Part shown: in pieces, positions 13,951 through 57,070 of the stretch
How positions within the stretch are numbered: position 1 is the stretch's first letter
Layout of the letters: every line of letters starts with the position of its first letter
Assembly: GCA_905178155.1 (NCBI GenBank)
Contig: CAJINV010000010.1
Location: 583,851 to 647,850, forward strand
Reading direction: 5' to 3'
Length of the DNA stretch: 64,000 bases
From: Amoebophrya sp. A120
Taxonomy: Eukaryota > Protista > Dinoflagellata
Position numbers and translations under genes: made by a program
Notes under the pieces: model-generated
Told to the model about the DNA's origin: nothing
The model's input: the letters and a program-made list of their open reading frames with translations, nothing else
Databases searched by the model: none

Positions 13951-14134
13951 ACATACACATCGGTCTTCGAACCTTCAAAAAGGTTTACAAACATACGTCG
14001 TCAGGGTGGGGTATTAAATAGCGACTGTTCTCTACCTCTGAGACCAGGAGGAGTTTTTGAATATATTTGCGCAAGAAGACTACATTGCTCCTTCCTAATC
14101 ATGCCCTTTGCTCACCTTCAACATTTCTTCTTCG

Positions 14135-20100: not shown

Positions 20101-23100
20101 ATACTCGCGTCGCAGAGTTCTTGTTGCCCCTTGTAGGGATTTCATAACAGCATATAGAAATTCAAATTTTTTTTCGAAAATTTTTCTGATGCTGTAGTAG
20201 TTACTGCGGATTGATTCGCAAATCGTGTGAAATAAAACTGTCTTGTTCCTTGCAGTACGACACAAAATCAAAACCTTGCAGCACTCCTCTCCATGCATCA
20301 CATAAGTACTACATCTTGTTCTTCAATGAAACCCGCATGACAAAAATCCACAGACCCAGATCGATATAATTTGCAATGCGTATTCCCGTCGAGCAGGTAC
20401 ATCAAATTGGTTTTCTCCCGCTCGATCTTCATTTCCATCGATTTCAGGAACTGTTTCTTCCGCGGCAAATCGCTGTGCTTCAGCTCTTCCCTTGCGAATT
20501 CGGCTTCCAGCGACAACTGGTTCAGTTGCTCGATTTTCTGCGCCGTCTGCTGCAGCTTTAGTTTCTGTGCGGAGATTTCGTTCTGATAGGCCCGCTATGC
20601 ATTGCAAATATGTCTGGGTCTGGAAACTTGTAATGCTATGAGTGAATGATAGACGCACACGCACTGCAATACGCAGCTACGCATAACAAATTTTTTGGCT
20701 GCCATGTGTTCTTACGTATTCCGCATGATAAACTGCGTTAGTGCATGATAGGCAAGAGCAGGGCCTTTTCGTACCTATGCAACACAGATTCTCGAGTCAT
20801 GCCAGACAAGCATGACAAACTTGCTTTTTTCCGGACCCAGACATATTTGCAATTCGTACCCGCGACTGCATGTGCAGCCACGCATTCGAGCCGCTGGACG
20901 AGGACGGCGCGTCGAGGGCGGTGGGAAATGATATCCCATGTAAAAACGTCCCCACACCAGAGTCAAGCTGGGGATCTCGCAACACAAATCGAGAAGTTTT
21001 GGGGGTCCAGCATGACAAGTTCGTCTCTGTATTGTAGTGCAGTTTAGCAAGCACAGCCGCAACACAAATCCATCTACTCATCCTGTCGACAGCATTACAA
21101 AGCGCAAAACGCGATTGGAAATGCCTCTCAAGTGGATGCGCATTACAAATCTTCCTGTAGCTGCAAATCTGCATGACAACTCTGGGGTGGGTACATTTTT
21201 GCTCAGGATAAATGAGTGTCGTGCTTCTTGTTGGTGCTGTGGTCCCGCGAAAAAAGTGTTACAGTTACACATTTCTTGTAGTGAATTCAGCAACACAAAT
21301 TTCCCTGCATGAGAGAGAAAACTTGTAATGCAGAAATCCTACGGGAAAACACCTATGAAACGAGGCTCCGATGCATATCCGGCATGACAGAGCTTGTTTG
21401 TCTTGCTTGGCCTGCAATACAATGTGTAAGTGTAACACTTTTTTCTTGCGATAGCTGTGGTCCCGCAATTGATATTTCCCGCCCGCCGCTGCCTTCCGCG
21501 GTTTTGCTCGCCGTCTCGGGAAACGTTCCGTATGCATTGCAAAAGTACTAATTGGAGGTATGCATTACAAATTTTTTTCCTAAGGTAGATCCGCATTACA
21601 AATCTTATTTCTCATGCTGAGGAAATTTGTATTGCAATTTATACTCGTACGATGCTTTTGCACAGGATATTCCGGATGCGGCGTCGACGTTGTCCGCCGC
21701 GCCGGAGGTGACCACTTGCCCAGGCACGATCTTCAATATGAGACTGCACATCTCCCCCTCCCCCTCGTTTGTGATGCAAGATGCCAAGCTCTCAGTTATC
21801 CTTATCTCCCGAGTAAGCCCTGCTCACATGAGAAATTTTGGAACCTGAAAGAGTCCTACGCTCCATGAGTAGAAGATTTGACGATGTCATGCGGAAGATA
21901 GTAAGGTGTACCCTTCTGGCACTCAGTCTCTTGCTGCTCATGCCATATCAACGAGGGGGAGGGGAAATTGTGCTCTCTCATATTGTTCAAAAAAGGAGTA
22001 GTTGTTGTGCTACTGGATGAACTGCCGCTAGTCCCGCCGTCCCCGGATCCCAGCCCTGCGAGCTTTTCGGCCAACTTTCCGCGCTTCAAAATTTGTCCCC
22101 GCTCGTTTTCGAACACGATTCGTTGCGCCTTCTCGTAGCTCAGGTGGGACTGCTTTTCCGCCACTTCTTCTTTCAGATTCTCCACCTTCTCCACCAGTTG
22201 CTGTTTGAAGCTTCGCAGCCGTGACACCTGCTCCTGCAGTTCTTGCTTCTTCTGCTCCAACACAATTTTGGCGGACTCTTCCTTGTTCAAGATCGTGGTT
22301 TTGGCCCGGGTGATCTCGTAGTGGTATGCATCCAGCTGCGAAGGGTGGAAGGACGTGCTAACAAGCGACCGCCTCTGTGGGTGCTGCTGCTGGCTCATCA
22401 TGCTGGTCTCTCCGCCACGCCCTGCGCCATACATCGTTTTGTTTCCGGGTGGTGCTAGCGGCAGCAGCTCGTCTGCAGTCGTTAAGTAGCCGGACTTCAA
22501 TATCCCGCGGTGCGTCCCCAGTTGCAATTCGGCGTGGATCATGTTCTGCGAAGGCCGTACAGCCAGCGGCTTCCTAGTCTTCGCCGCGGTTTTAAAGGCG
22601 GCGGTTGTTTTCACAGCACCCCGTAACTTCGACCAATTGCTCACTGGCGAACTACCCGCATCGTATCGACTGCAAATATGTTCTGTGGGTCTGGAAAGTT
22701 GTTAAATCTTCACGTTGCCAGCACTAGATGAACGGAGAAGTGACAGCATTCTTCATACTTACGCAGCCTAGCATGACAAATAACTTTTCGAGCAGTTCTA
22801 CTACTGTAGTGCGTAAGCGTATTCACGCGCCTCAGAAGGCGCTAAGATTCCGCGATAAGAAAATACAGAGCACAACGGGCCGCGTACATTGGAATCAATG
22901 CTAAGTAATGCGAGTGCTAAAGCAATGCTAGCTCAGCATCACAACAAGTCTTGTCATCTTCTAGACCACACCGTATTTGCAACGCATAAACCACTCACAG
23001 GTGGTCGGGAAGGGCCTGTCGTTCGCATTGGTTCGTTGTTCAACATCTTTGCTGACTCTGCCTCTTCCCCTACAACTGCCTCTGCCCCACTGTTTGCGCC

Positions 23101-24381
23101 GATGGGAGCCGAAGGAGCCGAAGCGGCCGTACTAGATCCTCCAGTAGTTGTGAGGTAGCTGGGCAGGAAACTGGTGAAGAATGCTGCTGTTGTCGACGAC
23201 TGCCCCGGTGGCTCTGCTTCCGTCTTGATGTGCTCATCATCTGCGACAGCAGCGGTGGCAGGGGACGTGCTAGCGAATCCAAGTCCTACCCCGCCCGGCA
23301 CGCTCCTTGGTATCGCGGTGGTGGACGAGGACGTCGCTGTGTTAGTATTATTGCTCATCTGCATGCTTGTACTTCTCGCGTCTTCCTCTTGTGCGGCCGT
23401 GCTGGTGGCAGCTCTCCCCTTGATCTCCGCCTCCACGATTGATTTTCGAACGGCTTCAGACCGTCTCCGTATCCACAGTAAATTTCCCGTACACGTTCAC
23501 GTACAAATGAGGTCTCCGCATGACAAAACTTGGGTTCGATGCTAGTGTAGCATGACAAGTTTTGCGCTCCAAATTGGCGAAATTTGTGATGCATCTTGTA
23601 CATGTACGGGAAATTTGTATTGCATACTCCGCGCGTACGGACTGCTGGGTTGGTTGTCGGCGCCGTGGCCCAGCTGCTTCAAGAGCACCTGGTGTATCCT
23701 GAGTAAAAACGTCCCCCCTGTCATGCAGATTTGCAATGACGGGAACATTTGTGATGCGCATCTCCATGATAGGCATAATTTCCAGTGGTGTTTTGGAAAA
23801 ATTTGTAATGCTGTAAACAGGATCAGCAGATGATTTTGTAATGCGGATGTCCTTGCCAACCTGCACTACATTACGGACTGCAACTTGTCATGCGTGACTC
23901 CCAAAACTTCTAGGTTTGCGTTGCAATATCCCTATCTTGACTCTGGGGTGGGGACGGTCTTACGTAGAATATGGTGCTCCATTTCTTTCAGCACTTTGTC
24001 CTGGTCCTGCCTCTCTAGCCGATCCAGAATCATGCTTGCTTCCTCGTAGAGCTCCTCCTTGATCTGCAACAGGTGCTCAGTGGGGGTGCTGGAAATGAGC
24101 CGGATCTTCCGGTTCTTCGCTTCTTCTTGTTCCGCCGCCTCTTTTACTTCACGCGGATGGGCCGCCATTGAGGATGTTGATGTCCTTGTTGCTGCAGGAG
24201 CGCCGAGGACATGATCCGCCTGGGGTATGCTGGCTGTACTCACCCTGGTCGTCGTGGCACGACCTCCGCCAACAGCGACGCCAGTCGGGTACAGCTCCTT
24301 GACAGAACTCGAGTCGCGGAACTTCTTCATCTTCTCCTCTTGTTGCACAACGACCAGAGGCTGCGGGGCCGCACTTGCCAT
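14135..24381 (-). CDS. Large coiled-coil hypothetical protein with a possible PH-like segment (may be two genes; ends uncertain)
   Basis: ATG at 24381; K/E/Q/L-rich exons between about 20 introners; segments LYLDDVLSLRWG and EFLAENDEQMEFFMVYFHEFCEHL. Confidence 0.5.
14187..14503. mobile_element. Introner family D (TIR TATnnnAGGAAAAATCCCCCTCCCCATA)
   Basis: TSD TTTTT/TTTTC. Confidence 0.85.
14955..15279. mobile_element. Introner family D
   Basis: TSD CTTTG. Confidence 0.9.
15413..15697. mobile_element. Degenerate introner family A
   Basis: TSD GCGCG. Confidence 0.8.
15754..15903. mobile_element. Introner family C (TIR TATnnnnTGCAAAAGTATCGnACTCG)
   Basis: TSD GATGG; left end TGT. Confidence 0.85.
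15975..16226. mobile_element. Introner family A
   Basis: TSD AAGCC. Confidence 0.9.
16682..16940. mobile_element. Introner family A
   Basis: TSD ACTCG. Confidence 0.9.
17351..17602. mobile_element. Introner family A
   Basis: TSD ACCGA/AGCGA. Confidence 0.82.
18501..18771. mobile_element. Introner family A variant
   Basis: TSD CGGGA; removal gives KVLPELSSK. Confidence 0.88.
19056..19377. mobile_element. Introner family D
   Basis: TSD CCTTG. Confidence 0.9.
19421..19693. mobile_element. Introner family A
   Basis: TSD TTCAG. Confidence 0.9.
19763..20041. mobile_element. Introner family B
   Basis: TSD GTACG. Confidence 0.92.
20058..20382. mobile_element. Degenerate introner family A
   Basis: TSD TTCCG/TTCCC; only 16 bp from the previous element. 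Confidence 0.75.
20596..20858. mobile_element. Introner family A
   Basis: TSD CCCGC. Confidence 0.88.
20932..21210. mobile_element. Introner family B
   Basis: TSD AATGA. Confidence 0.9.
21241..21453. mobile_element. Introner family E (TIR TATCnCAnGAAAAAAGTGTTACAnTTACAC)
   Basis: Near-identical to 45777-45989 and 56386-56595; left TAT replaced; 13-bp direct repeat. Confidence 0.85.
21531..21669. mobile_element. Introner family C
   Basis: TSD TTCCG. Confidence 0.88.
21737..21982. mobile_element. Introner family H
   Basis: TAT..ATA TIR; TTCAA repeat offset by 3 nt. Confidence 0.78.
22664..22988. mobile_element. Old, degenerate introner family A
   Basis: Eroded TIRs; TAT..ATA kept; TSD no longer matches. 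Confidence 0.6.
23470..23626. mobile_element. Introner family I (TIR TATnCAnnnnAAATTTCCCGTACA)
   Basis: TSD CTCCG. Confidence 0.88.
23695..23971. mobile_element. Introner family B
   Basis: TSD TGGTG. Confidence 0.9.
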
Positions 24382-35500: not shown

Positions 35501-36200
35501 TTCTCCGGAAGCACGGCCCGGAGAAGGGCCCAAGTCCCCCCTTTTTTGTTTATACATAGTCATTTCAAAAACATATCCCATCCGGCCTTCCCGGCTTTGG
35601 GACTTTTCGCGAGCCGAATTCCGTAGGGCGGGCGCGCCGTGGGCGCGGTAGAATGCGCAGGTGGTCACGCTCAGGGCAGTTCGCGAGAAGCAGGGTCGAT
35701 CGACCTACAGAAGGAGAAGAAAGCTGCTTTTGCTCACCGCGTTGGAGAACGTTGCCGCCTCCTCCACTGCAGCGAAAGATCGGCCAGCCAGACGAGGCTG
35801 CTTCGCCTCGTCAGGCATGCCAGGTTCTTCAAACAGTTCCAGGTCTTTCGAAAGAGGGCACGACCCAACTGTAATGCGCCCGGCGCTCGGGCCGCCAAAA
35901 CGCGCAGGCGCAAGCGGCGTTACTCCCGCCGTACCCTTGGGACAGCCACTTCAATGGTGGACCACCGCGAGGCCTCAATGGGCAAGCAAGCTGGCGCCTC
36001 TGTGTCGCACACCAATCAGCTACGCTGAACTCATTTGTGGAAAAAAAAACCTGCTCTGGCTTAAGTCCTTTCCGTTGCCATATCCAGAAACACCGCCGCC
36101 GAGTCGCTTCCCGCGGCTGGCGCCCCTGTCTTGCGTTGCTTTTCTTTTTCTCTAGTTTCCAACGTGCGTCACATTTGCATATCTCAATAAGCGACCAACC
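26600..36200. other. GC-rich, homopolymer-rich, TC/GA-poor degenerate tract (eroded transposon or gene relics)
   Basis: Abrupt compositional change; no intact introners; only spurious R/A/P/G-rich ORFs apart from short normal-composition islands (about 27600-27880 and 35680-35870). Confidence 0.6.
28230..29900 (+). repeat. Degenerate tandem array, unit about 55-60 bp
   Basis: Recurrent ACCAGAAAAGCnGC...GGGCCGCTTCTGTTnGCnnTGCGCA-like units. Confidence 0.55.
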
Positions 36201-43601: not shown

Positions 43602-43836
43602 TATGGAGCTCTCAAACGTTACATTCTCAACTGTTACGTGATTTGTCATGCAAAATTGCCTTGACTACTAACGCCATCAAGCTGCTTCGCGTGGCAAATT
43701 CTCAGACGGCCAAACAGGCGGAGAATCTGCGCCAAATCTGTCATGCACGACGCGCAAGGTCTTTCCTTTCACTTTTACCATTTTTGCATTACAAATCCAT
43801 GTAACACTTGAGAATGTAACAGTTGAGAACGCCATA
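43602..43836. mobile_element. Family F element downstream of the ACL stop (3'UTR or intergenic)
   Basis: TSD AAAAA; TIR shared with copies at 55346 and 1994. Confidence 0.88.
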
Positions 43837-44037: not shown

Positions 44038-47000
44038 TCACGCCAAATTTGGCGTTGCAGCACCAGAAACCCGCGTGGGCGGGCGGTCCTCGATGTAGGC
44101 AATGTCCGTGAAGGGGTGGCGGTACAGCGGTTGGTTGAGCCGCTTCTGGTCTATCCTGTGCAAAAGTATCGCACTCGTTGTAATTGCATTTATGCATGAC
44201 AAATCTTTTTATTAAGGTAAATCAGCATGAGAAATTTATTCATTTGTAATGCTGAGCAAATTTGTAATGCAATTGCTATATATTATATTCATGCGAAAAA
44301 AGAGGTAGACAGAGGGTAAACAAGAGGTGGCCGAGAGGTCAAAAAGAGGTCAAAAGAGGTAAAAAAGAGGTCGACAGAGGTGGAGAGGTGGCGCGGGACC
44401 CCTTTCGAGAGGGTCGGCGAGAGGGTGCGCGAGTATAGCCCGCCGAAGGACCCACCTTAAGGCGGCGCCTAAGTGCCTCAGAGGGTGCAGAGAGGTCACA
44501 AAGAGGGGGCGCGAGAGGTCGACAGAGGTCGAGAGAGGTGGCGCGAATAAGGGCCAACCTCTCGCGCACCCTCTCGGCCACCTCTGTCGACCTCTACCCT
44601 CGAGTATAGCCGGACTATTAGCGGGGACCCCCAAAAGAGGTAAAAAAGAGGGTCTGCGAGAGGTCTGCGAGAGGGTAAAGACACAAAGTAGCGGGCGCGA
44701 ATCCGCATGGGAGTCCCCATATTTAGCGTCGCAGGCTCTTCGCGGACTTGTTTTGTCCGGCGCCTGTCCCCACCACCCTCTCGCGCACCCTCTCGCGCCA
44801 CCCTCTCGCGCGACCCTCTCGCGCCACCCTCCCGCGCCACCCTCTCGCGGCGGGCGGCTTCTGTTCGCCCCCGGTGTTCTTTGCAGTTGCTCCCTGCGCA
44901 GAGCGCCCACAGGCGCGGGAGGCGCGCAAGTAGTCCTGCGGGTTGGCGCGGCGCAAACTCCAGTATGCTTCGTTGCGCACAGGCCCGTGGCGTTGTGGTC
45001 CGATCGGCAAACTGTCTTGCCCCGGTCCAACAGCCTTGCGCTCCGGCGGCAGCCGGAGCATGGCTGGTTTATACTAGTACGACACTTTTGCACTGCATAT
45101 GGTCCAGCACGTGGCCGATCAACCCGATGGAGCGCGCCGGTATCAAATGCAAATATGTCTGGTGTTCTCAGTTAAATGTCATGCGGTTTTTGCATCATGA
45201 CCGCCCAGAAGCTTTGGTAAATGCAAGCAATAGCATCACAAGTTTAAAGTTTTGAGAAGGCTTCTTCTCGCTGATGCCCATCGGCCAGAGCTAGTAGCAT
45301 CACAAACGCACAAGTCTCTTCCAGAGGACCTGGACATATTTGCGATGCCTAGCCAGCACGAACAAGCCGTTCAGGCAGCCGGAATCCACGAACTGGTCAC
45401 ACTCTTCGACTGTGAACGCGCCGCACTTTCTATCGTGGGAAAAAACTGTCTCAGGCGCAACTTGCAATGCGCAACTCCCTTGAGACAGTTTTTTGTCATG
45501 CTCGACACGCAAGAAAATCGTCTTTCACAGGCATTTTTCCTTGTTTCTCACGCATCACAGGTTTTCCGTGTCTTGCTGCGCAAATTTCTATTGCTAGAGT
45601 CTACTGCAAAGGCTTGAGACTGGGACAGTTTTTTCGTACGATACTTTCGCAGCATGTCCACAAAGGCGGCGGCAATGCATCCGTCGACGTTGAGGATGAG
45701 GTTGGCTTTCTTGGTGATGGTCACTTCCTCCACCTTCAGCGCAAATCCCAGCACGGACTCCTGCGGATCCTCGCTGTATCCCACGAAAAAAGTGTTACAG
45801 TTACACATTTGTAGTGAATTCAGCAACACAAATTTCTCTGCATGAGAGAGAAAACTTGTAATGCAGAAATCCTACGGGAAAACACCTGTGAAACGAGGCT
45901 CCTATGCATATCCGGCATGACAGAGCTTGTCTGTCTTGCTTGCCCTGCAACGCAATGTGTAACTGTATTAACACTTTTTTCTGGCGATACGCTGGACCAG
46001 TTGTCCAATGCGAACTTCTTCAAAATTTCCACTCGTTTGTCTCGTGAGGAAAAACAACCCCTCCCCATATCGGACAGGAAATTTGTGATGCTGGATTTCC
46101 GTACACAAGTCGGCTTGTATTGCTAGAGGGCCAAGGGACGCAGTTATGGCCGAAAATTTGTCATGCTGTTTCCCACTCGCAGTTGCCTCCTGTCATGCTA
46201 AAGACGCAAGGCCTTCTTACGTCAGCCAGCGCTACAGACTGCATCTTTTCCCTTCTAGCATGACAATATGATTTGTGGTCACAAATCAGCATCACAAATC
46301 TTGAGTATGGGGTGGGGGGATTTTTCATTTTGATAGTTTGTCCGGGTTGTGCTTCGACTTGATTCGGTGCCCGATCCCCATGATGAGTTCGTTCTTCTTC
46401 TTCATTTCGTTCACGTAGTCACGCGCGTCAATGGCCTTGTCGAACTTATCGAGACTGCAAGATAAGTATCGCACTGGTAATAATAATTGCAGTCACACCT
46501 TAAAAAGCTCTTTCCCAAGGTAAAGCCGCACTACAAATTTCGTTTCTCATGCTGAAGAAATTTGTGTTTGTCATGCGATTTCTACTAGAAGTGCGATGCT
46601 CTTGCGATGCATAAAACGCCTTGGTGAAAGACTTTGCGGCGGCATCAAGCGCGCCGCCAAACCGCGGCCCAATGGTGAGCAACCCGCTGCAGAGGCTGTC
46701 CACCACATCCTTCCCCGCGCGGGCACACACGATTGCGTTGTGCGCTCCCGAGACGGCGGGACCGTGGTCGGCGCACACCATCAGGATCATCTCCATGAAC
46801 TGGCAGCTATCAAATGTAAAAGTGTCTGGGTCTGGAAGGTTGCAACTTGTGATGCTGTCTTTGGAAGGTAAAAAAATCTGTATTGCATGACCAGCAAGAG
46901 GGCTTCAGTTTGTGCTACGCGGAGTGGGCGTTTCTCATGCGGAATACGCATCAGAAGGCCCTTTAAAAATCTATGATGCTCGGCCATGCATTACAGGCGT

Positions 47001-50000
47001 CATGGGTTATGCAAAATATGCATGACAAACCTGGCAATCTTCCAGACCCAGACATTTTTACACTTGATAGCAGCACTCGAGCGGCAAGTTCCGTTTGAAC
47101 CACAGCAACGAAATGACCGAGCCCACGCCGCGGCTCATCTGCATGATGTTGCTCAATTTCATGCCCCCGTACGTCACTTCGTCCCCCCTGTCGTCCGAAA
47201 TGCTGCACACCATGTTGGCCGGGTTCGGGCGCACTACGCCGAGCTTCTGCAGCGTCTTGAAGTCTTTGGGCACTTGCGGCACCTCCGGCTCCTGAAACAG
47301 GGGAATCTCCTTCTTTTCGAGCAATTGCTTGTAGATTTTGTTGATCTCCGTGCCGAGGGAGTCAAACGATCGGGGCACTGTGATGCCGTTCTGAAGTGAT
47401 ATGACCCGCTCAAACGTTAGTTACAATCTCAAACGTTACAATAGAATCTGGATTTTTTATTGCATGATGAGCATAACAGAACCGCACAGCGTTCCACTTT
47501 CTGCAATACAAATTTCGGATGATTTGCTAGTGCGGTTTGGGACTCCAGAATTTGTCATGCGCAATGCTGTGGGAGTAGGCTAGGCCATTCGCCTTTTGCA
47601 TCACAGATTTCCAGATTCTATTATAACGTTTGAGATTGTACTAACACCTGAGCAGGTTATAAGGGAGAGCGCCAGATTTTTTGCCTTCGCGGTTTCGCGG
47701 TCGGACCGGGATTATCAACTGCAAGTGTGTCTGGGTCTGGAAGAGTGCCAGACTTGTCATGCAGGTTTTCCATGACCCATGAGGTCTGGTATGTAAGACG
47801 TAGCATGGCAGATTCTGTCAAAGTTGTTCTATCGTGCCTATCCTGCATGAGAAACCGCCTCTCGATTGGCTCAAAAGTGGAGAACTTTTAGTAATCACGC
47901 AACACAGATTTATTTTACATGACTCAGATTTAGCATGACAAGTTGCTTTGTTCCAGAGGACCCAGACACTTCTGCTTTTGATAGGGATTGCGCCCCGGCG
48001 TGCCCGAACTGCATCTCGTCGCTGAACGCCGCTGCACAGGTATTCTGAGGAAAAACATCCCCACCCCAGAGTTGTCGTGCAAATCTGCATGCCAAAAAAG
48101 CTTCTCATGCGGAGCCCCATGCGAAGCATTTTGTCTTCATGTTTTGGAGTCAATTTGTGATGCTTAATCAGGGTTATACGCTAGGCCTGTGATGCTGCTG
48201 AACTAGCTGAACAGGACTACACTACGAGGACAAACTTCTCATGCGAAACAACCAACTCTGGTTGATTTATTGTCTAGCTGATTTTCCAACTTGACTATGG
48301 GGTGAGGACGTAGTTTTCAGACAGGATAACAGGTGCCGACACACCACGCGACCAGTGGCTTGGTGATTCGTTTGTCCTTGACCGCATCGAGCACCTCGTA
48401 CTCATCCAACCCCCCGACTTCCCCGAGCAACACAATCATTTTCACGCTCGGATTCCGCTGGTACCGCAGGATGTGGTCCAGAAACCGCGTGCCCGGATAC
48501 CGATCCCCGCCCACCGCCACGCCCTCGGCCACACCGTTGGTGTTGCGACATATGATGTTGTTCAACTCGTTGCTCATGCCGCCGGACCGGGAGACGTATG
48601 CCACAGACCCCGGACGGTATGGATTGCAAATATGTCTGGGTCTGGAAGAGTGGAACTTGTAATGCTGTCTGCGGATTCTAGAACTATCTGTGTTGCATGA
48701 GCAGCAAGAGGAGTGAGTCCTTGGCACGTCGCGGAGAGGGCATTTCTCATACGTGATTAGCATCAATAACCTCTCAAAAAATCTGTGATGCTAGCACCAG
48801 CATCACCGACCTCAAGGGTCATGCAAAATGTGCATGACAAGCCCCGACTCTTCCAGCCCCAGACATTTTTGCAGTTGATAGACGGTAAAGTTTCGACATG
48901 ATAATGTTTTCGATCGCGCCCCCGGTGTTGCTATCAAATGCAAACATATCTGGGTCTGGAAGGATGTAACTTGTGATGCTCCATTAGGATGCTACAAAAA
49001 TCTGTATTGCTTGAATAGCAAAAGAGGCCCAGTTCTTGCCACGGCGCGAGGGCATTTCTCATGCGGTATAGGCATTAGGAAGGCGTCACGAAATCTGTGA
49101 TGCTAGGGCATGCATTACAGACATCAGGAGTCATGCAAAATGTGCATGACAAACCAGACCCAGACACATTTGCATTTGATAGTTGCCGATGCGAAAGGCG
49201 CCCGGCTTGATGCCGCCCACGGTGGCAGGACCAATAATGGACACGCCCTTTGCCTGATGTTTTTGTATTTTATTGTTTGTGGGCGGTGCATTACGGAAGG
49301 AGGAGCAGCTGTATAGAGGAACACACATCACAAAAAACCGTGCTTTTGTAGCAACGTATATCATGAAAGTGATACATTCATAAAGAAGAAATTATACCTC
49401 CGCAAGGCAGATCAGTTCCCGAGTTTGTCGTTCCGGCATCCCCTCCGCAATCGCTTCTCCTGAGGAAAAACGCCCCCACCCCGAAGTTGTCATGCAGATT
49501 TGCAATTACAGGAACGTTTGTAATGCGCAGCCGCAGCCCCATGAGGCGCATCATTTTGAATCGCGTTTCTGCAGACGGGACAAGTAGATGGGTTTATTGT
49601 GATCCACGCCTGTCCTTCTATACGTACTATATTCTAAACTGCACTACCATACGGAGAGACACAACTTGTCATGCGCGAGTCCCAAAACTTCTGCATTTGT
49701 GTTGCAGATTTACCAATCATTGACTATCAGGTGGGGACGTTTTTGCTCAGAATATCACTGCAATGGTCTTCAACCGGCTCGAAAACTTCAGGGCCTCCAT
49801 GGTGGAATCGTAGCTGGACCGGAAGTATGCATTGCAAAAGTATCGTAGTCGTACTTCTACTAATTGCAGTCATGCATTACAAATCTTTTTCTTAAGGTAA
49901 ATCAGCACAACAAGTCATGCAATTCGTACTTGTACAAGAATACTTTTGCAATGCGTAGGAATGAAGCGAAGTTGATCATGAAAGACACCTCTGGGTGCTC

Positions 50001-53000
50001 ATCAATCGCGTCGGCGATGTTCGGGTACACTGGAATAAAAATTTCCTCTACGCTATCCTGTGTACAAACGTTCCCACCTCCCCAGAGTTCTTCTTGCCAT
50101 GCGGATTTGCAAGTACAGGAACATTTGGAACGCGCATCCCCACAAGGAGTAGAGCTATTTCCATCTGTGGTTGGAAATTTGCAAAAATGCTGCCAACAGG
50201 ACACAGAGATGGCTTTGTGCTGCGACTGTTATTGCTAACCTGCACTACAATACATAGTAAACCGAGAAATTTGAAGATGGCATGCGTGACTCCCCATCAA
50301 CTTTCCAGATTTGTGGTGCAAAGATCCTAACTTGACTATCATGGGGTCCTCGTGGGGACGTTATTTTCACGCAGGATATACGCCCCAGTATATAACCCGC
50401 TCAGGTGTTACAATCCCAAACGTTACAATAGAGTCTGAGATTTGTCTTGCATGATGAGCATGATCCAGCCAACTCTCATAGGGTTGAGCATGACAAGTTC
50501 CGGAGCTGTAAGCCCCACTACATTCTGGCGAAATTTGTATTGCAAAAGGTGGAACGCTGTGCGAGTCTGTCATGCCCATCATGCAACAGAAATTCCAGAT
50601 TCTATTGTAACGTTTGAGATTGTAACCTTTGAGCAGGTCATACAGTAGACCTTCATGTTCTGTCTCCCGCCGAACGGAAACACGACTGCGGAGACCGACG
50701 GCTTCTGCCGCCCGCAGATGCCGTCGAAGTCGAGCATGCGCTGGACCGCGGCCTGCTGCAGGTTATACACAATGCAGGTGGTGTCCTGGGTGGTCTCTTG
50801 CGTTTCCAGGGTCCGTAGTGGATAGAACGCGTGCGGGTGGCGCTCCGAGCCGGAGAGTATGCTGTGAAAATAAAGCGTGTACCATGTTCCGTCCTACATC
50901 GAGTGAGTATGCAAAGCCGGGCGTGGCTGTAGAAATTATATGTATATCTGCCATGCAAAAAATCCAAATTTTGTTCTTGACTGTCATACCCAGGAGGTCC
51001 TCTTGGACGAATCGAAATCGTGGTATACTTTTATTTTCACCGGATACTCAACCCCGCTTGATTATCCTTCGTAGGTGCGGAGCCGGGACTGGCGTCAACC
51101 TGCACAATTGCGGTTTTTTTTGGTCGTTTTGATGTGCTTTGTCATGCTAAAGAGGAACTACCAGAGGTAAAATCTACTAGATCTAGTACGTCATCTTTAT
51201 CAAACTTGTTTCATACTTTGCTGTAGTACACAGTAGGTTATGGTCCTCGATGTCGACAAAAACACCAAGAAATACTTCGTCCCCCAACACCCTCGCTGCG
51301 GCCACATTGTGCCGGATCATGTTGCTGGGCCGCCCCCCATATGAAATGCAAAAGTATCGTACTCGTATAACTATAAATGCATTACAAATTTTCTCAGCAT
51401 GAGAAATAAAATTTGTAATGCGGACTTACCTTGAGAAAGAGATTTGTAATGCATGTTTGCAATTACTACGACTGCGATACTTTTGCACAGGATACCCCAC
51501 CGATGCGCAGGTACTCGGCGGCATCCAGGTCGGGCTCTTCTTATCAAAAGGAAAATTCCCCCCTCCCCATATCGAAAACGAAATTCGCGATGCTGGATTT
51601 GAGTACACAAATCAGATTTTTCTTGCTGCAGAGGACTGCAGGCCCACTTCAAGCCTGAGTAGAGAGGTTTTGGCCTAGGCGCTTAGCATGAGAAACGTCT
51701 GCGCTGTAGGCCACACAGCATCACAAACCGCCTGCATAATGCGGCGGAGCCTGTGGAGTTGCCTTCTTGCAAGACAGAGATCATCTGTGGTCGCAAATCA
51801 GCATTGCAAATTTTCGGCGACGTACCTTTTCGATATGGGGAGGGGGAATTTTTCCGCGGGATACTTCTAACACCTCCATGAGGCCGAGAGACATCGGGAC
51901 GATGGTATCAAATACAAGAATCCCTGGATGTGTGGAAGGATGCCAGTTTGTCATGCTGCCTTTGGATTCGACAAAAATCTGTACTGCATGAGCAGCAACA
52001 GGAGTCCAGTTTTCGCTACACGGACAGGGCATTATTATATTTCACATGCGGTAGAGGCATGAGAAAGCCCTCGGAATAAAATCTGTGATGCGAGAGCATA
52101 CATCGCAGGCATCCTGGTCTTCCAAAATCTGCATGACAAACTCCTACTCCCATCCAGACCCAGACACTTTTGCAGTTGATAGATGGAAGTCATGTGCGTT
52201 TCGGGACCGTAGACTTTGATGGGCAGGCCGACGCTGGTGTATCAACTGTAAAAATGTCTGGGTCTGGAAGAGTCATGCTGTTTTTGCATGACACAGACGG
52301 TCTGGCATGGAAGCTCTAGCATCACAGGTTTCGAGAAGCTTCCGCAATGCCGAATCCGCATGACAAGTCCCCCATTTTGGTGACAGAAAGTGGGCAGCTT
52401 TTGCTACCTATGCATGAGAGATTTTTCTGTGTTCTGAAATGCGCATCACAAGTTGCATTCTTCCAGACCCAGACATTTTTGCAATCCATATGGTGACCGC
52501 GTCCTTGATTTTCCGCAACCCCTATCACGAGAAAAAAGTATTACAGTCACACACTCTGATGGAAGACAAGCAAGAGAGACAACCTCTGTCATGCAGGAAA
52601 TGCTTGCCAGCCTCATTTCTTTCGTGTTTTCCCTTATAGTCTGCGCATGACAGGTTTTCTTTGCCATGTCGAGCAACTTTGTGATGCAGAAACTCCAACA
52701 AGTGTGTAACTGTAACACTTTTTTCCTTGGATAACCCCTCGAGAAAATTCAGTCCCGCCCGGCGCACCCAGAAGGTGACTTTGTGGTCTTTTAACTCGTC
52801 GTATCGTACGAAAAAAGTGTTTCACTGTAGGGATTTTGCAAGTTCTGCATCACAAGTTTGTTCTACATCACAGAAAAAATTTGCCATGCGAGATTCCTCA
52901 GGGAAAAGTACACAGCTAAAAATCCATTGTCTTGCATGTGTAGCAAGACAAACACTTCCCAGATACATTTTCTGCATGACAAGTTTACAGTGAAACAGTT

Positions 53001-56000
53001 TTTTCTTGCGATACATCGGAGTACGCCTTGATCGCCTTGATCAACCCGGAGAAGTATCCTCTGCAAAAACGTCCCCACGATCCCATACCTGTGACGCAAA
53101 TCTGCATGCTGAAACTGTTTCTCATGCGGAGCCCCACGAGACGCGTTTTCTAGTCATGTTTTGGACGAATTTGTGATGCTCAAAGTGTAGCATGACATGC
53201 TGGATTCGTGATGTTCTTGTTGCACTAGCTCAACACGATGATTTTTACACTGCGTGCCCGAACTTGTCATGCGTAACAGCCAAAGGTTGTTGATTTGTCT
53301 TGCAGATGTCCCAACTTGACTATGGGGTCTATCTTGGGGGCGTTTTTATTCAGGATAAGAAGGTGCCCGCCACATCGGTAAAGTTGGCAATGCCGCCCCC
53401 GATGATGAACACTTTGCCTTCCGGCCGCTTCGTGCCCTTGGTGAGGAGCTGAAACAGCGTTTTCGCGTACTGGTACGTCTCGTCCGCGGTCGGAGCGCCC
53501 GAGTATATTGTGAGTAAAAACGTCCCAACACCAGAGTTGTCATGCAAATGCGCAATGACAGGAACATTTGTAATGCGCAGCTCCATGAGAGGAATTCCCA
53601 GTCGTGTTTTGGAATCTGTAATGCTGTAAACAGGATGCGAAAGTGGCTTTCTCATGTGGCTTTTCTAGCCAATCAGCACTACACTGCAGAGAGAAAAACT
53701 TGTCATGCACAACTCTCAAAACTTGGAGATTTGTGTTGCTAGATTCCCAACTTGACTATGGGGTGGAGACGTTTTTGCTTAGGATAGAGTATTCGCCGTA
53801 GTTTGCGAGTTCCGAACCGTACCCGAAATCCACGACGGTGTATCAAGTGTAAAAATGTCTGGGTCTGGAAGGTTGGAACTTGTGATGCTAACTTTGGACT
53901 CTAAAAAAATTTGTGTTGCATGACCAGCAATAGGAGCCCAGTTTGTGCTACGCGGGGAGGGCATTTGTCATGCGGGATAGGCATCAGGAAGGCCTCTAAA
54001 AATATGTGATGCCAGACCATGCATTACAGACATCATGGCTCATGGAAAATATGCATGACAAATCTAGAAATCTTCCAGACCCAGACACTTTTACATTTGA
54101 TACTGTGTCGGAGTAGACCACGGAGGCACCACCACTATCCTGTGCAAAAGTTGTATCGTAAACGTACTAATCGCATCCATGCATTACAGATTTCATTTAT
54201 TGAGGTAAATCCGCATTAGAGATTCCATTTCTAATGCTGAGGAAATTTGTAATGCGATTTATACTAGTATGATACTTTTGTAATGCATAACCACCCGCCA
54301 CCATCAACCACACGCGGCCGTTCGGGTTCAACACGGTCAATTTCAGCGACGCACCGGTCTTTTCGTCCAGCTTGCGGATAAAGGCCTCCTCGTATCCTAT
54401 GTAAAAGCGTCCCCACCCAAAAGTCAAGCTGGGGAGTCGGCTAGACAAATCCACAAGTTTTGGCTGTTTTGCATGACAAATTTCGACTAGTAGTGTAGTG
54501 CTGTTTGAGGTAGTTCATCAGCATCACAGATCTAGTATAGCATGATGATTGGAGCATGACAAATTCCAAAACACGACTAGACAATGCTTCTCATGGGGCT
54601 CCGCATGAGAAACATTTTCAGCATGCAGGTTTGCATTACAACTCTGGGATGGGGACGTTTTTCAATACGATACCTCGGGAAATTCGTTGCGCCCAAAAGC
54701 GGTTGGAAAGTCCACCTCGCCCCACTTCTTGTCGCAGAGGAACGCGTATGCATTGCAAATATGTCTGGGTCTGGAAGGATGCAAGGTCTGTCATGCATAT
54801 TTTGCATGACCCCTGATGCCTGTAATGCTTTGCCTAGCATGACAGTTCTCTTGAGGGCTTCCTGATTCCTATTCGGCATGAGAAATGCCCTCTCCGTGTA
54901 GCACAAACTGGACGCAGCATCACAAGTTGCAACCTGCCAGACCCAGATGACATATTTGCATTTGATAACCCGGCCGTCTCGTCGATTTTTGCCGCGAGGT
55001 CCAGGGGCACGATCTGCAAGCCGCTGGCGGTTCGCGCGTCGTCGACGACACACAGAGGGTTGATTTCCAGGTAGCTGTAGTGACACTCGGCGTAGAGCTA
55101 TCCAAGAAAAAAACACCATCACAATCACATTTAGGAGGTTTTGCGTCAGAAATTAGTCTCGCATGACAAATTTTTCTTGTATTGCAAAAACACAAAGAGA
55201 AATCGCGTATAAGTCTTGACTGTGATGCATTTTTGCGCATGACAAAATTTTTTGTATTGCAAAAATGTGCAAAAGTGGTTGTGATGGTGTTTTTTTCTTG
55301 AATAAGAGCTCAAACAGGTTGCGGATGTACTCGGACAAAATTTTTTATGGGATTCTCAAACGTTACATTCTCAACTGTCACATGAATTTGTCATGCAAAA
55401 CTCTCATCAGTATCACTATCATCATGCTGCTTCGCATGACAAATTTTCAAAGGGCTAAAGAGCATCTAAATCTGTGCCGAACCTGTAATGCAAAACGCGC
55501 AATCTTGTTCACCCTTGCATTTTTGCCATTCTTGCATTACAAATTCATGTAACAGTTGAGAATGAACATTTGAGAAGGCCATATTTTTCGCCGGGACACC
55601 GGCACCTGGTGCAGCAGGTTGTCCAATTCGTCATCCGTCAGCTGCTTCTTCGAGTCCGTCTTTACCTTCAGCCGTTCGGCTTTCGCGTCCACGTCGCCGA
55701 TATCGACCCCGCCCTCGTGGTAAAAGAAGATCTCGTATCAAATGTAAAAACGTCTGGGTCTGGAAGCGTCATGCTGTTTCTGCATGACGCAGAAGGTCTG
55801 GCATGGAAGCTCTAGCATCACAGGTTTCGGAAGCTTCCGCAATGCCGAAACCGCATGACAAATCCCACATTATGGTGACAGAAAGTGAACAGCTTCTGCT
55901 ACCTATGCATGAGAGATTTTTGTGTGTTCTGAAATGCGCATCACAGGTTACATCCTTCCAGACCCAGACATTTTTGCGCTTGATATCTCGTCGTAGTACC

Positions 56001-57070
56001 GATCTGATTGGATCGCCACGTAGTACTCGTCCTCTATCCTGTGTAAAAACATCCCCACCCCAGAGTTGTCATGCAGATCTGCAAGCACAAGCGCATTTGT
56101 AATGCGCATCCCCATAGGGGGCATTTCCCAGCGTGTTTTGGAACTTGTAATGCTGTAAACAGTATGGGGAGATGGATTTCTTATGCGGCTTTCCTTGCTC
56201 AACTGCACTCCGCTACAGCCTGCAACTTGTCATGCGTGACTCCCAAAACTCCAAGGTTTGTGTTGCAAAATTCCCAGCTTGACTCTGGGGTGGGGACGTT
56301 TTTACACAGGATATCCTCTTGGTTGTGTTTCAGGAAGGGCTCGATGAGAAAATGGGTCAGAACCCCTGTCACGTTCTCGATCGTGTATCCCACGAAAAAA
56401 GTGTTACAGTTACACATTTGTAGTCAATTCAGCAACACAAATTTCTCTGCATGAAAGAGAAAACTTGTAATGCACAAATCCTACGGGAAAACACCTATGA
56501 AACGAGGCTCCTATGCATATCCGACATGACAGAGCTTATCTGTCTTGCTTGGCCTGCGACACAATGTGTGAATGTAACCCTTTTTTCTTGCGATATCGTG
56601 AGCTCCTTGTGCAGTCGCTCCGTGATCCATTCATTGCACTCCTCGAAGGTGCAATTCACCTTGATCAGACCGGCCTTGCCTCGTCGCTTGATCAGCTGGT
56701 CGGGCTTCACAACCAGCTTTTCCGTCTTCAACCAGGGATGCTTGGCCAGAATCTCATCCCATGCGAAATCTGTTTTGTTTTTGTGTCATGCAATATGAAA
56801 AAAAAACATTTGTGGTCATGCGGGTGGTGATACAAGTAAGTACTTCAATGCAAAAACAGAATCTTGGGGAGCAGACAATCATGCCATAACTCTGCTCCCC
56901 AACAGGCATGCAGTAGAAACACGATAGAAGTGATAAGTACGGATATCCGAGCTCTGCCACAGGGACGGAGTGACCAGGACACCTTTGTACTCCGCGTTGT
57001 CGAACGGTGCCTTCAGGTTCTTGTAAATCATGCATTTGCCATGATACTCGCGTATCGCTTTCACCGACAT
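44038..57070 (-). CDS. ACLY: ATP-citrate lyase, single fused chain; 33 introners plus at least 2 GT-AG introns
   Basis: Reconstructed [174 protein letters not shown]; stop TGA at 44038-44040; GT-AG introns 56770-56940 and 49254-49397; linker 50.85-51.3 kb not fully resolved. Confidence 0.97.
44152..45099. mobile_element. Introner family C with a nested minisatellite-rich insertion of about 0.8 kb
   Basis: TSD TGGTC; removal gives [16 protein letters not shown]. Confidence 0.9.
45141..45351. mobile_element. Introner family A (degenerate)
   Basis: TSD GCCGG/GCCAG; gives FVLARSIG. Confidence 0.85.
45431..45643. mobile_element. Introner, E-related
   Basis: TSD CTTTC; gives DMLRKCGAF. Confidence 0.9.
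45777..45989. mobile_element. Introner family E
   Basis: TSD CGCTG. Confidence 0.92.
46040..46335. mobile_element. Introner family D
   Basis: TSD GTTTG; gives NPDKRVEIL. Confidence 0.9.
46447..46613. mobile_element. Degenerate introner family C
   Basis: TSD GAACT/AAACG; gives TKAFDKAI. Confidence 0.8.
46808..47069. mobile_element. Introner family A
   Basis: TSD GCAGC; gives ECCQFMEM. Confidence 0.92.
47400..47661. mobile_element. Introner family G (TIR TATnACCnGCTCA..TACAATCTCAAACGTTA)
   Basis: TSD AGTGA/AGGGA. Confidence 0.88.
47713..47983. mobile_element. Introner family A
   Basis: TSD GGGAT. Confidence 0.9.
48041..48328. mobile_element. Introner family B
   Basis: TSD ACAGG; gives VGTCAAAF. 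Confidence 0.9.
48618..48880. mobile_element. Introner family A
   Basis: TSD GACGG; gives KLYRPGSV. Confidence 0.92.
48932..49181. mobile_element. Introner family A
   Basis: TSD GTTGC; gives RIGNTGG. Confidence 0.92.
49456..49754. mobile_element. Introner family B
   Basis: TSD TCGCT/TCACT; gives TIAVIAEG. Confidence 0.88.
49826..49957. mobile_element. Introner family C
   Basis: TSD GGAAG/GGAAT; gives NFASFRSS. Confidence 0.88.
50054..50378. mobile_element. Introner family B
   Basis: TSD TACGC. Confidence 0.88.
50391..50642. mobile_element. Introner family G
   Basis: TSD CAGTA. Confidence 0.92.
51340..51494. mobile_element. Introner family C
   Basis: TSD CCCCA. Confidence 0.9.
51542..51863. 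mobile_element. Introner family D
   Basis: TSD CTTCT. Confidence 0.92.
51906..52181. mobile_element. Introner family A
   Basis: TSD GATGG; gives HMTSIVPM. Confidence 0.9.
52240..52490. mobile_element. Introner family A
   Basis: TSD TGGTG. Confidence 0.92.
52523..52733. mobile_element. Introner family E
   Basis: TSD ACCCC; gives FLEGLRKI. Confidence 0.9.
52802..53013. mobile_element. Introner, E-related
   Basis: TSD CGTCG/CATCG. Confidence 0.88.
53055..53357. mobile_element. Introner family B
   Basis: TSD AGAAG; gives AGTFSGLI. Confidence 0.9.
53506..53786. mobile_element. Introner family B
   Basis: TSD GAGTA; gives GEYSGAP. Confidence 0.92.
53841..54102. mobile_element. Introner family A
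   Basis: TSD CGGTG/CTGTG; gives YSDTVVD. Confidence 0.9.
54136..54289. mobile_element. Introner family C
   Basis: TSD ACCAC; gives VAGGGASV. Confidence 0.92.
54393..54672. mobile_element. Introner family B (opposite orientation to the copy at 56035)
   Basis: TSD CCTCG; gives FPEEAFI. Confidence 0.92.
54747..54967. mobile_element. Introner family A
   Basis: TSD ACGCG/ACCCG. Confidence 0.88.
55099..55304. mobile_element. Introner, E-related (TIR TATnCAAGAAAAAAACACCATCACAA)
   Basis: TSD AGAGC; gives LFELYAEC. Confidence 0.9.
55346..55583. mobile_element. Introner family F
   Basis: TSD TTTTT; gives RRKILSEY. Confidence 0.9.
55736..55985. mobile_element. Introner family A
   Basis: TSD TCTCG; gives [11 protein letters not shown]. 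Confidence 0.92.
56035..56313. mobile_element. Introner family B
   Basis: TSD TCCTC; gives NQEDEYYV. Confidence 0.92.
56386..56595. mobile_element. Introner family E
   Basis: TSD TCGTG; gives KELTIENVTG. Confidence 0.92.

What the first reader, a model, noticed from the sequence alone, without database searches (positions are those of the whole stretch)
44038..57070. A conserved enzyme gene split by 33 TIR+TSD transposon-like introns with no GT-AG: a non-canonical, orientation-independent excision system
Seen: every element runs TAT...ATA (a few have one changed base), has TIRs and a 5-bp direct repeat of exon sequence. Deleting the element plus one repeat restores ACL motifs in all 33 cases. 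Junction dinucleotides vary with the TSD, and one family works in either orientation (B at 56035 vs 54393; A at 52240 vs 53841). Two ordinary GT-AG introns sit in the same gene. Known: inverted-repeat introners with short direct repeats were described in Amoebophrya (Farhat et al. 2021, BMC Biology), with the removal mechanism unresolved. Inference: removal reads the TIR hairpin and makes a cut staggered by 5 nt, either by a structure-guided endonuclease/ligase on RNA or by DNA-level excision.
Basis: partly seen in the sequence, partly recalled or inferred. Interest (0 to 1): 0.85.

Follow-up and report, generated by a model that had tools for sequence, protein, structure and literature searches.

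The report
Transposon introns cut at fixed offset
In the marine parasite Amoebophrya A120, a citrate-lyase gene is interrupted by 34 small hairpin transposons that are all missing from an assembled spliced copy although almost none has normal splice signals; such introns are already described, but the cut sites fit one fixed offset from the hairpin, likely the signature of an unusual RNA-splicing machine.

Summary
The window is Amoebophrya sp. A120. Its ATP-citrate lyase gene holds 34 (not 33) TAT…ATA inverted-repeat elements and 3 (not 2) GT-AG introns. Removing each element plus 5 nt gives a 1139-aa enzyme and matches a 4653-nt spliced contig at every checkpoint; genomic contigs keep the elements. 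These are the introner elements of Farhat et al. 2021 (same strain, TAT motif, 5-bp repeat), so the system is known.

Added here: elements whose two repeat copies have diverged fix the cut. Only '4 nt of the upstream copy + 1 nt of the downstream copy' fits 6 of 6 informative joints here, and only it reproduces a neighbouring gene's deposited protein (0 differences). The intron is N-TAT…ATA-NNNN, so the cut is not at the inverted-repeat ends. One element is removed without any direct repeat. The excising machine is untested: relaxed spliceosome about 0.5, nuclease plus ligase about 0.38, DNA excision about 0.03. Unchecked scan notes report similar hairpin introns in another dinoflagellate genome.

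The parts
44038..57070 (-). ATP-citrate lyase gene (fused beta+alpha), 38 exons, 1139 aa; Amoebophrya sp. A120
   Evidence: spliced contig
56770..56940 (-). canonical GT-AG intron 1
   Evidence: contig piece starts at 56941
56386..56595 (-). TIR element, family D, exact 5-bp repeat (for every element the removed intron in the 4+1 register is start-4 .. end+1)
   Evidence: removal shown only by summed length
56035..56313 (-). TIR element, family B, exact repeat; opposite orientation to 54393
   Evidence: summed length
55736..55985 (-). TIR element, family A, exact repeat
   Evidence: summed length
55346..55583 (-). TIR element in an A-run repeat; same family as 43602
   Evidence: summed length
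55099..55304 (-). TIR element, exact repeat
   Evidence: summed length
54747..54967 (-). TIR element, repeat mismatched at position 3; joint not displayed
   Evidence: summed length
54393..54672 (-). TIR element, family B; the only one that reads GT-AG in the 4+1 register
54136..54289 (-). TIR element, family C; opposite orientation to 51340
53841..54102 (-). TIR element, family A; repeat mismatched at position 4; joint not displayed
53506..53786 (-). TIR element, family B, exact repeat
   Evidence: piece ends at 53500
53055..53357 (-). TIR element, family B, exact repeat
   Evidence: piece starts at 53358
52802..53013 (-). TIR element; repeat mismatched at position 4; joint not displayed
52523..52733 (-). 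TIR element, family D; opposite orientation to 45777 and 56386
52240..52490 (-). TIR element, family A; opposite orientation to 53841 and 48932
51906..52181 (-). TIR element, family A, exact repeat
51542..51863 (-). TIR element, family E, exact repeat
51340..51494 (-). TIR element, family C, exact repeat
   Evidence: only this boundary restores both frame and contig length
50858..51046 (-). TIR element with no direct repeat left (4 of 5 positions differ), still removed with 5 nt; pins the register to 4+1
   Evidence: (X6 and X4 pieces end at 50853)
50391..50642 (-). TIR element, family F; opposite orientation to 47400
50379..50390 (-). micro-exon, 7 nt net, between two hairpins; retained in the spliced contig
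   Evidence: tables 5 and 5c
50054..50378 (-). TIR element, exact repeat
49826..49957 (-). TIR element; repeat mismatched at position 1; joint allows k 1-5
49456..49754 (-). TIR element, family B; mismatch at position 3; joint allows k 3-6
49254..49397 (-). canonical GT-AG intron
   Evidence: joint reads CT..AC on +
48932..49181 (-). TIR element, family A; joint displayed
48618..48880 (-). TIR element, family A; joint displayed
48041..48328 (-). TIR element, family B; joint displayed
47713..47983 (-). TIR element, family A; joint displayed
47400..47661 (-). TIR element, family F; mismatch at position 3; joint allows k 3-6
46808..47069 (-). TIR element, family A; joint displayed
46447..46613 (-). 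TIR element, family C; mismatches at positions 1 and 5; joint allows k 1-4
46040..46335 (-). TIR element, family E; 3' end changed; joint displayed
45777..45989 (-). TIR element, family D, 92% identical to 56386; joint displayed
45431..45643 (-). TIR element, exact repeat; joint displayed
45141..45351 (-). TIR element; mismatch at position 2; joint allows k 2-5
44152..45099 (-). family-C-like TIR element enlarged by a nested ~0.8-kb GC-rich insert; removed whole
   Evidence: length fixed by flanking checkpoints
14100..24381 (-). neighbouring gene (deposited protein P0137; 3' end approximate) with 23 TIR elements and 2 GT-AG introns; second test of the register

Best explanation
The 34 elements are short inverted-repeat insertions of Amoebophrya A120, likely non-autonomous DNA transposons, that are missing from the spliced copy of the gene together with 5 extra bases and are likely cut out of the pre-mRNA at a fixed offset from their terminal hairpin by a relaxed spliceosome. 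Shown: each element is removed with 5 extra nt, in either orientation, whatever the terminal dinucleotides, even where the direct repeat is gone. Shown on the informative junctions: the one register that fits all of them keeps 4 nt of the upstream repeat copy and 1 nt of the downstream copy, so the intron is N-TAT…ATA-NNNN. Inferred: insertion by a DDE transposase/integrase in trans makes the 5-bp duplication. Inferred: the TIR stem joins the two ends; N-U-A-U is read as the donor (positions +2/+3 as in the genome's GTA donors, G+1 not needed); the acceptor is measured 4 nt beyond the stem instead of by AG. Because both TIRs begin TAT, either orientation gives the same substrate, and the duplication makes the product scarless.
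For: Removal and lengths. Register k (nt kept from the upstream copy) at ACL joints: 2-5, 1-4, 3-6, 3-6, 1-5, 4; k=4 fits 6 of 6, k=3 fits 5, k=5 fits 4. Gene 2: uniform k=4 gives 0 differences from P0137; k=3 and k=5 give 2 each; k=0 gives 7. At k=4 the donors of 57 elements are CT 15, GT 15, AT 14, TT 13, and AG is the acceptor in 5 of 57. Canonical donors begin GTA in 5 of 5. The first two bases TA are intact at 57 of 57 transcript-5' ends, while the mirror bases are changed at 4 of 57 3' ends (about p=0.06, weak). In Farhat Table S4 all nine predominant A120 site pairs start N-T. In Gozashti's dataset GT donors are 26-30% in the seven families of 96 or more copies among the 21 of 58 A120 rows I saw. 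A120 keeps all but 6 of 89 spliceosomal proteins plus U2/U4/U5/U6, with U1 undetected; 15% of its canonical introns share the IR/DR layout. Strains with canonical introns include Kv, which has U1. Fritillaria is a precedent for likely spliceosomal removal of TIR-derived non-GT-AG introns.
Against: Nothing here tests the machine. Neither G+1 nor AG is kept, and both are central in known spliceosomes (recalled). The predicted donor sits inside a stable stem. The shared internal motif GCAT[GCT]ACA is not a convincing branch site: in its relaxed form it has no sense copy in 5 of 34 elements and is absent from 3 of 5 canonical introns. A polar offset is equally expected of a nuclease acting on an RNA helix. 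Only one register of six puts T-A at +2/+3, so the match to GTA has about a 1-in-6 chance basis. k=4 exactly rests, at RNA level, on one junction (50858) inferred from piece ends and summed length; without it k=3 also fits ACL. P0137 is a gene model, not an mRNA. At 54747 homologs have Ala (downstream copy), whereas k=4 gives Gly, and that joint was not displayed.
Confidence: 0.5

Rival explanations
1. A spliceosome-independent, structure-guided endonuclease cuts 1 nt before and 4 nt after the TIR stem and an RNA ligase joins the exons, as proposed for euglenid and diplonemid nonconventional introns.
For: No terminal dinucleotide preference. Strong terminal stems: median z -5.7, 32 of 33 close the ends. 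Orientation independence and a 7-nt micro-exon. Euglena's signature N3-CDG…CHG-N5-6 also leaves a longer unpaired 3' side, and its introns are released as circles. RNase III-type and tRNA-type routes are proposed for diplonemids.
Against: The register gives N-U-A-U, matching canonical +2/+3. The 5' TA looks more conserved than its 3' mirror (weak). In 50858 the stem extends 3 bp into the flanks, yet the cut keeps its distance from TAT/ATA, so it is not simply set by the stem end. 45141 and 46447 have predicted terminal pairing near zero but are removed. No such enzyme was identified.
Confidence: 0.38
2. The elements self-splice as hairpin ribozymes, or by some third RNA route.
For: All are highly structured.
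Against: Families share little beyond TAT-N7-AAA and a short repeated motif; lengths run 132-948 nt; no Rfam match in the window.
Confidence: 0.06
3. The elements are excised from DNA (programmed, ciliate-IES-like) before transcription.
For: TIR plus target-duplication anatomy. In one search, 2604 joints were not shown and life stages were not sampled, so rare excised alleles are not excluded.
Against: Run X1 contigs (depth 39-54, 0 differences) carry elements 45141 and 50858 whole. The spliced contig also lacks all three GT-AG introns. Low-depth unspliced pieces sit beside the spliced contig in X4 and X6. A two-fold symmetric transposase gives no reason for 4+1 rather than 1+4.
Confidence: 0.03
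4. The joins are reverse-transcriptase template-switch artefacts across hairpins flanked by direct repeats, and the gene is a pseudogene or spliced otherwise.
For: Hairpin plus short direct repeat is the known substrate of that artefact (recalled; a paper search found nothing).
Against: All 34 removals are needed for a conserved 1139-aa enzyme. One contig lacks all of them. 50858 is removed with no direct repeat.
Confidence: 0.01

Closest known systems
Introner elements / non-canonical introns of Amoebophrya sp. A120 (Farhat et al. 2021, PMC7789003; read: abstract, sections 11, 12, 16, passages, supplement legends and Table S4; figures not seen)
   Same: Same strain; IR begins TAT + 7 nt + AAA; 3-5-nt direct repeats (Fig. 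S19 legend: 5 bp); about 240 nt; repeated families; RNA-seq-supported removal; mechanism open; U1 undetected.
   Different: The paper calls the splice position relative to the hairpin variable or unknown (Fig. 3 legend). Here one register (4+1) fits all informative junctions, and removal without a direct repeat is shown. In the parts I read, orientation independence is not stated.
A120 TIR-DNA introner families (Gozashti et al. 2025, PMC12130899; passages and 21 of 58 A120 dataset rows)
   Same: TIR DNA elements of 150-320 bp, about half annotated with non-canonical donors, 'tens of introns in a single gene'.
   Different: Their automated labels disagree between families (co-opt 5', co-opt both, carry 5'; TSD 2-5); no common register is given in the rows seen.
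Euglenid nonconventional introns (PMC12501133, PMC11282704; passages) and hemistasiid diplonemid noncanonical introns (PMC12621601; passages)
   Same: No GT-AG, end-to-end pairing, TSD-like repeats, probable MITE origin, fixed offsets from the stem.
   Different: Different motif (CAG/CTG) and offsets (N3 / N5-6 plus purine rule), short stems, unrelated lineage. Circular products are known there and untested here.
Fritillaria borealis non-canonical introns (PMC11282704, PMC13326754, PMC12621601; passages)
   Same: TIR+TSD-derived introns without GT-AG beside a conserved U2 spliceosome.
   Different: They have preferred termini (AG-AC, AG-AT) and intact U1; here termini are essentially random apart from +2 U.
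Ginger2/Tdd DNA transposons (PMC2836005; passages), as a candidate mobiliser class
   Same: TIRs; TDD-4/5 make 5-bp TSDs; integrase-like enzyme, echoing A120 family 38.
   Different: Ginger termini are TGTNR, here TAT; Gozashti found family 38 lacks Ginger termini and TSDs; no transposase found in this window.

Membership tests
Amoebophrya A120 introner elements (Farhat 2021) | Occurs in A120 | tested here: met
   P0001 and P0137, both named A120, are 100% identical to window exons
Amoebophrya A120 introner elements (Farhat 2021) | Terminal IR beginning TAT + 7 variable nt + at least AAA | tested here: met
   142 element ends: T 142, A 138, T 138; A at positions 11-13 in 122-129
Amoebophrya A120 introner elements (Farhat 2021) | 3-5-nt direct repeat at the boundaries | tested here: met
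   5 bp; exact in 25 of 34 here, 40 of 57 over two genes
Amoebophrya A120 introner elements (Farhat 2021) | Repeated across the genome in families | tested here: met
   families of 2-21 members in the window, up to 92% identical; many paralogous contigs
Amoebophrya A120 introner elements (Farhat 2021) | Spliced out with non-canonical ends | tested here: met
   33 of 34 not GT-AG
MITE / non-autonomous TIR DNA transposon | TIRs, fixed-length TSD, no coding capacity, both orientations | tested here: met
MITE / non-autonomous TIR DNA transposon | Cognate autonomous transposase | tested here: inconclusive
   none among 3 ORFs of the 2.57-kb element and 5 other ORFs scanned; whole genome not held
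U2-type spliceosomal intron | GT (or GC/GA) donor and AG acceptor | tested here: not met
   1 of 34 GT-AG; donors N-T at random
U2-type spliceosomal intron | Branch point and lariat intermediate; dependence on U2/U6 | not testable with these tools
   motif scan gave no obligatory sense-strand branch motif
Euglenid nonconventional introns | N3-CDG…CHG-N5-6|R signature | tested here: not met
   signature here is N-TAT…ATA-N4
Euglenid nonconventional introns | Excised as full-length circles | not testable with these tools
   no raw reads of this strain covered the gene
Ginger2/Tdd transposons | TGTNR termini | tested here: not met
   TAT in most ends; TGT in 2 of 142

The most novel reading that the evidence does not exclude
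A120 has a dedicated, spliceosome-independent mRNA endonuclease-ligase that treats any TAT-ended TIR hairpin as an intron and cuts it by a 1-nt/4-nt ruler. That would be a host transposon-tolerance system making tens of thousands of insertions scarless in either orientation, evolved independently of the euglenid pathway.
Probability: 0.35. Interest if true: 0.85.

Novelty: already known. Interest (0 to 1): 0.45.

Why it matters
The elements are published for this strain, so the finding is not a new system. How they are removed is an open question, and the paper left the cut position unknown. A single rule (intron = N-TAT…ATA-NNNN, independent of terminal dinucleotides, repeat identity and orientation) makes it testable. 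It predicts the exact ends of the excised RNA and gives a minimal reporter design. It should also repair gene models: the deposited ACL covers only 550 of 1139 aa. Either outcome would matter: a spliceosome that needs neither G+1 nor AG, or a second eukaryotic mRNA-splicing enzyme.

Tried and rejected
No whole genome was held, so no genome-wide register test and no look at snRNAs, Prp8 or a transposase.
No RNA holder is listed on record. Raw-read run X9 gave no ACL exon reads at 90% likeness, only paralogous element ends, so it tells nothing on this gene.
Joints at 52802, 53841 and 54747 (informative mismatches) were among the 14 hidden rows and stay untested.
A search for a deposited N-terminal A120 ACL protein found none among the 120 of 1109 hits listed.
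A third gene (61051-61887) could not be searched because the queue was full.
Branch-site idea for GCAT[GCT]ACA (93 hits in 9.1 kb of elements, 49 sense and 44 antisense, vs 1 in 3.4 kb of exons): rejected as obligatory; more likely a DNA-level subterminal motif.
Whether the register follows the transcript or the element's own orientation: inconclusive, because the informative elements are too diverged to orient in pairs, and both genes are on the minus strand.
The 2.57-kb element 36773-39343, the nested insert and three long ORFs gave no Pfam match. Rfam found nothing.
Alternative donor for the linker intron (51231) and leaving that intron in: both break the frame and the contig length.
One element boundary (20058) was mis-set and corrected.
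Paper searches found no statement of a fixed register. Roy et al. 2023 (Curr Biol) was seen only as a citation, and Farhat's Figs 3 and S19-S25 are images I could not see; they may bear on this.

Full report
Identity. A 110-aa exon of the gene is 100% identical to a deposited protein of Amoebophrya sp. A120 with citrate-synthase and CoA-ligase domains. A neighbouring exon likewise matches A120 protein P0137. No whole genome was available.

Observation. A search for TAT…ATA ends with a 5-nt repeat and end complementarity found 29 elements in the gene, against 0-2 in each of 20 dinucleotide shuffles. A relaxed search and reading of the frames added five (45141, 46447, 49456, 49826, 50858), giving 34. 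The repeat is exact in 25 of 34, has one mismatch in 7, two in 1 and four in 1. TAT…ATA is intact in 30 of 34. Three GT-AG introns are needed; the third (51100-51275) lies in the beta-alpha linker. Deleting each element plus 5 nt gives a 1139-aa ATP-citrate lyase that aligns end to end with full-length homologs and is identical to P0001 over its last 550 aa. Elements fall into several families. All 33 elements folded have z < -2 (median -5.7), and 32 of 33 pair their ends.

Expression and level of removal. None of the holders is on record as RNA. However, run X6 holds a 4653-nt contig whose pieces match the model at every checkpoint, and X4 holds two contigs that agree. Laid at 100% likeness, X6 gives 29 joints in 45000-55080, the number the model predicts. 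15 were displayed: 13 single-element joints all skip length + 5, one is a GT-AG intron, and one is a double joint that keeps a 7-nt micro-exon. Ten elements from 53506 to 56386 and eight from 50858 to 53055 are verified only by summed length. The contig lacks the GT-AG introns too, so it is a spliced product. X1 contigs (depth 39-54, no differences; possibly the assembly's own sample) keep elements and introns. DNA-level excision is therefore very unlikely. Template-switch artefact is excluded in practice because all 34 removals are needed for the enzyme and one occurs without a repeat.

Where the cut lies. With an exact repeat the junction slides and is uninformative. Where the two copies differ, the product shows which was kept. 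Let k be the bases kept from the transcript-upstream copy. ACL joints allow 2-5 (45141), 1-4 (46447), 3-6 (47400), 3-6 (49456), 1-5 (49826) and exactly 4 (50858; from piece ends at 50853 in two runs plus summed length). k=4 fits 6 of 6, k=3 fits 5, k=5 fits 4. In the neighbouring gene (23 elements, 2 GT-AG introns), uniform k=4 reproduces the 1224-aa deposited protein with 0 differences; k=3 and k=5 give 2 each and k=0 gives 7. That protein is a gene model, so this support is indirect. The intron is thus N-TAT…ATA-NNNN. Over 57 elements the donors are CT 15, GT 15, AT 14, TT 13; AG is the acceptor in 5; 2 are GT-AG by chance. Published tables agree without stating the rule. All nine predominant A120 site pairs in Farhat's Table S4 begin N-T. 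GT donors are 26-30% in the seven large families among the 21 of 58 A120 rows I saw in Gozashti's dataset. Both tables depend on aligner choices. Against my reading: three informative ACL joints were not displayed, and at 54747 homologs favour the downstream copy's Ala over the Gly that k=4 gives.

Mechanism. Shown: precise removal of element plus 5 nt in the spliced product, in both orientations, with free termini and no need for the repeat. Shown on the informative junctions: one register. Inferred: cut-and-paste insertion by an unidentified DDE enzyme; none was found in the window. The machine is inferred. I favour a relaxed U2-type spliceosome (0.5) for four reasons. First, the register puts the TIR's T-A at +2/+3, as in all five canonical GTA donors of the two genes, and U at +4, which unmethylated U6 A43 favours according to a passage in PMC13326754. 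Second, the 5' TA is intact in 57 of 57 elements while its 3' mirror is changed in 4 (weak, about p=0.06). Third, A120 keeps nearly all spliceosomal proteins but no detectable U1, whereas strain Kv has U1 and canonical introns. Fourth, Fritillaria offers a precedent. Against it: G+1 and AG, central in known spliceosomes (recalled), are both unused; the donor lies in a stem; and no obligatory branch motif was found. A euglenid-like nuclease plus ligase (0.38) explains these points and has a similar asymmetric geometry. It does not by itself explain the donor-like register, or the removal of 45141 and 46447, whose terminal pairing is predicted to be weak.

Relation to what is known. Farhat et al. 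2021 describe this class in this strain: TAT + 7 nt + AAA inverted repeats, 3-5-nt direct repeats with a 5-bp example, over 60% non-canonical introns, and an unresolved mechanism. Gozashti et al. 2025 note tens of introner introns in single A120 genes. The elements meet every defining feature of that class that I tested. They fail the GT-AG test for spliceosomal introns, the euglenid signature and the Ginger termini. Four paper searches found no statement of a fixed register, and Farhat's Fig. 3 legend calls the border variable or unknown. I could not see the figures or read Roy et al. 2023. Unchecked notes from this scan report single hairpin-transposon introns without splice signals in another dinoflagellate genome; I did not test them.

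Verdict. Real and already known as a class. The fixed 4+1 register and the independence from the direct repeat are a useful addition that makes the open mechanism directly testable. Interest 0.45.

Noticed in passing
window 36773-39343: A 2.57-kb TAT…ATA element with an exact 5-bp repeat and internal repeats; no transposase-like ORF (3 ORFs scanned against Pfam, none matched). Possibly a decayed long or nested member.
   Followed up: partly
window ~44279-45071: A ~0.8-kb GC-rich insert with tandem and inverted AGAGG/CCTCT-type repeats, nested at a TA-rich site inside element 44152; similar sequence occurs in other contigs. Type unknown.
   Followed up: partly
elements throughout the window: The motif GCAT[GCT]ACA is shared by otherwise unrelated families (93 hits in 9.1 kb of ACL elements vs 1 in 3.4 kb of exons), strand-biased in family B and present in 2 of 5 canonical introns; candidate protein-binding site.
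   Followed up: partly
window 43602-43836: A TAT…ATA element in an A-run about 200 nt past the ACL stop, within the span the spliced contig should reach; whether elements in 3' UTRs are spliced was not checked.
   Followed up: no
window 44038-57070: At the 4+1 register 19 of 34 elements are phase 0 (p about 0.006 against one third); gene 2 has 11 of 23.
   Followed up: partly
run X9 laid on window 46808-47069 and 53841-54102: Raw RNA reads of another sample carry a family-A element end joined to unrelated flanking sequence (45 and 18 reads), i.e. an un-excised copy at another locus; cause unknown.
   Followed up: no
window 44038-57070: The deposited A120 protein covers only the last 550 of 1139 aa, starting after the 7-nt micro-exon; the annotation is truncated.
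   Followed up: yes
window 2326-4053: A 1.7-kb TAT…ATA element with an exact repeat and an assembly gap inside; a possible longer member.
   Followed up: no
window ~27500-36000: A GC-rich (60-66%) block with long overlapping ORFs and no TIR elements; three ORFs gave no Pfam match.
   Followed up: partly
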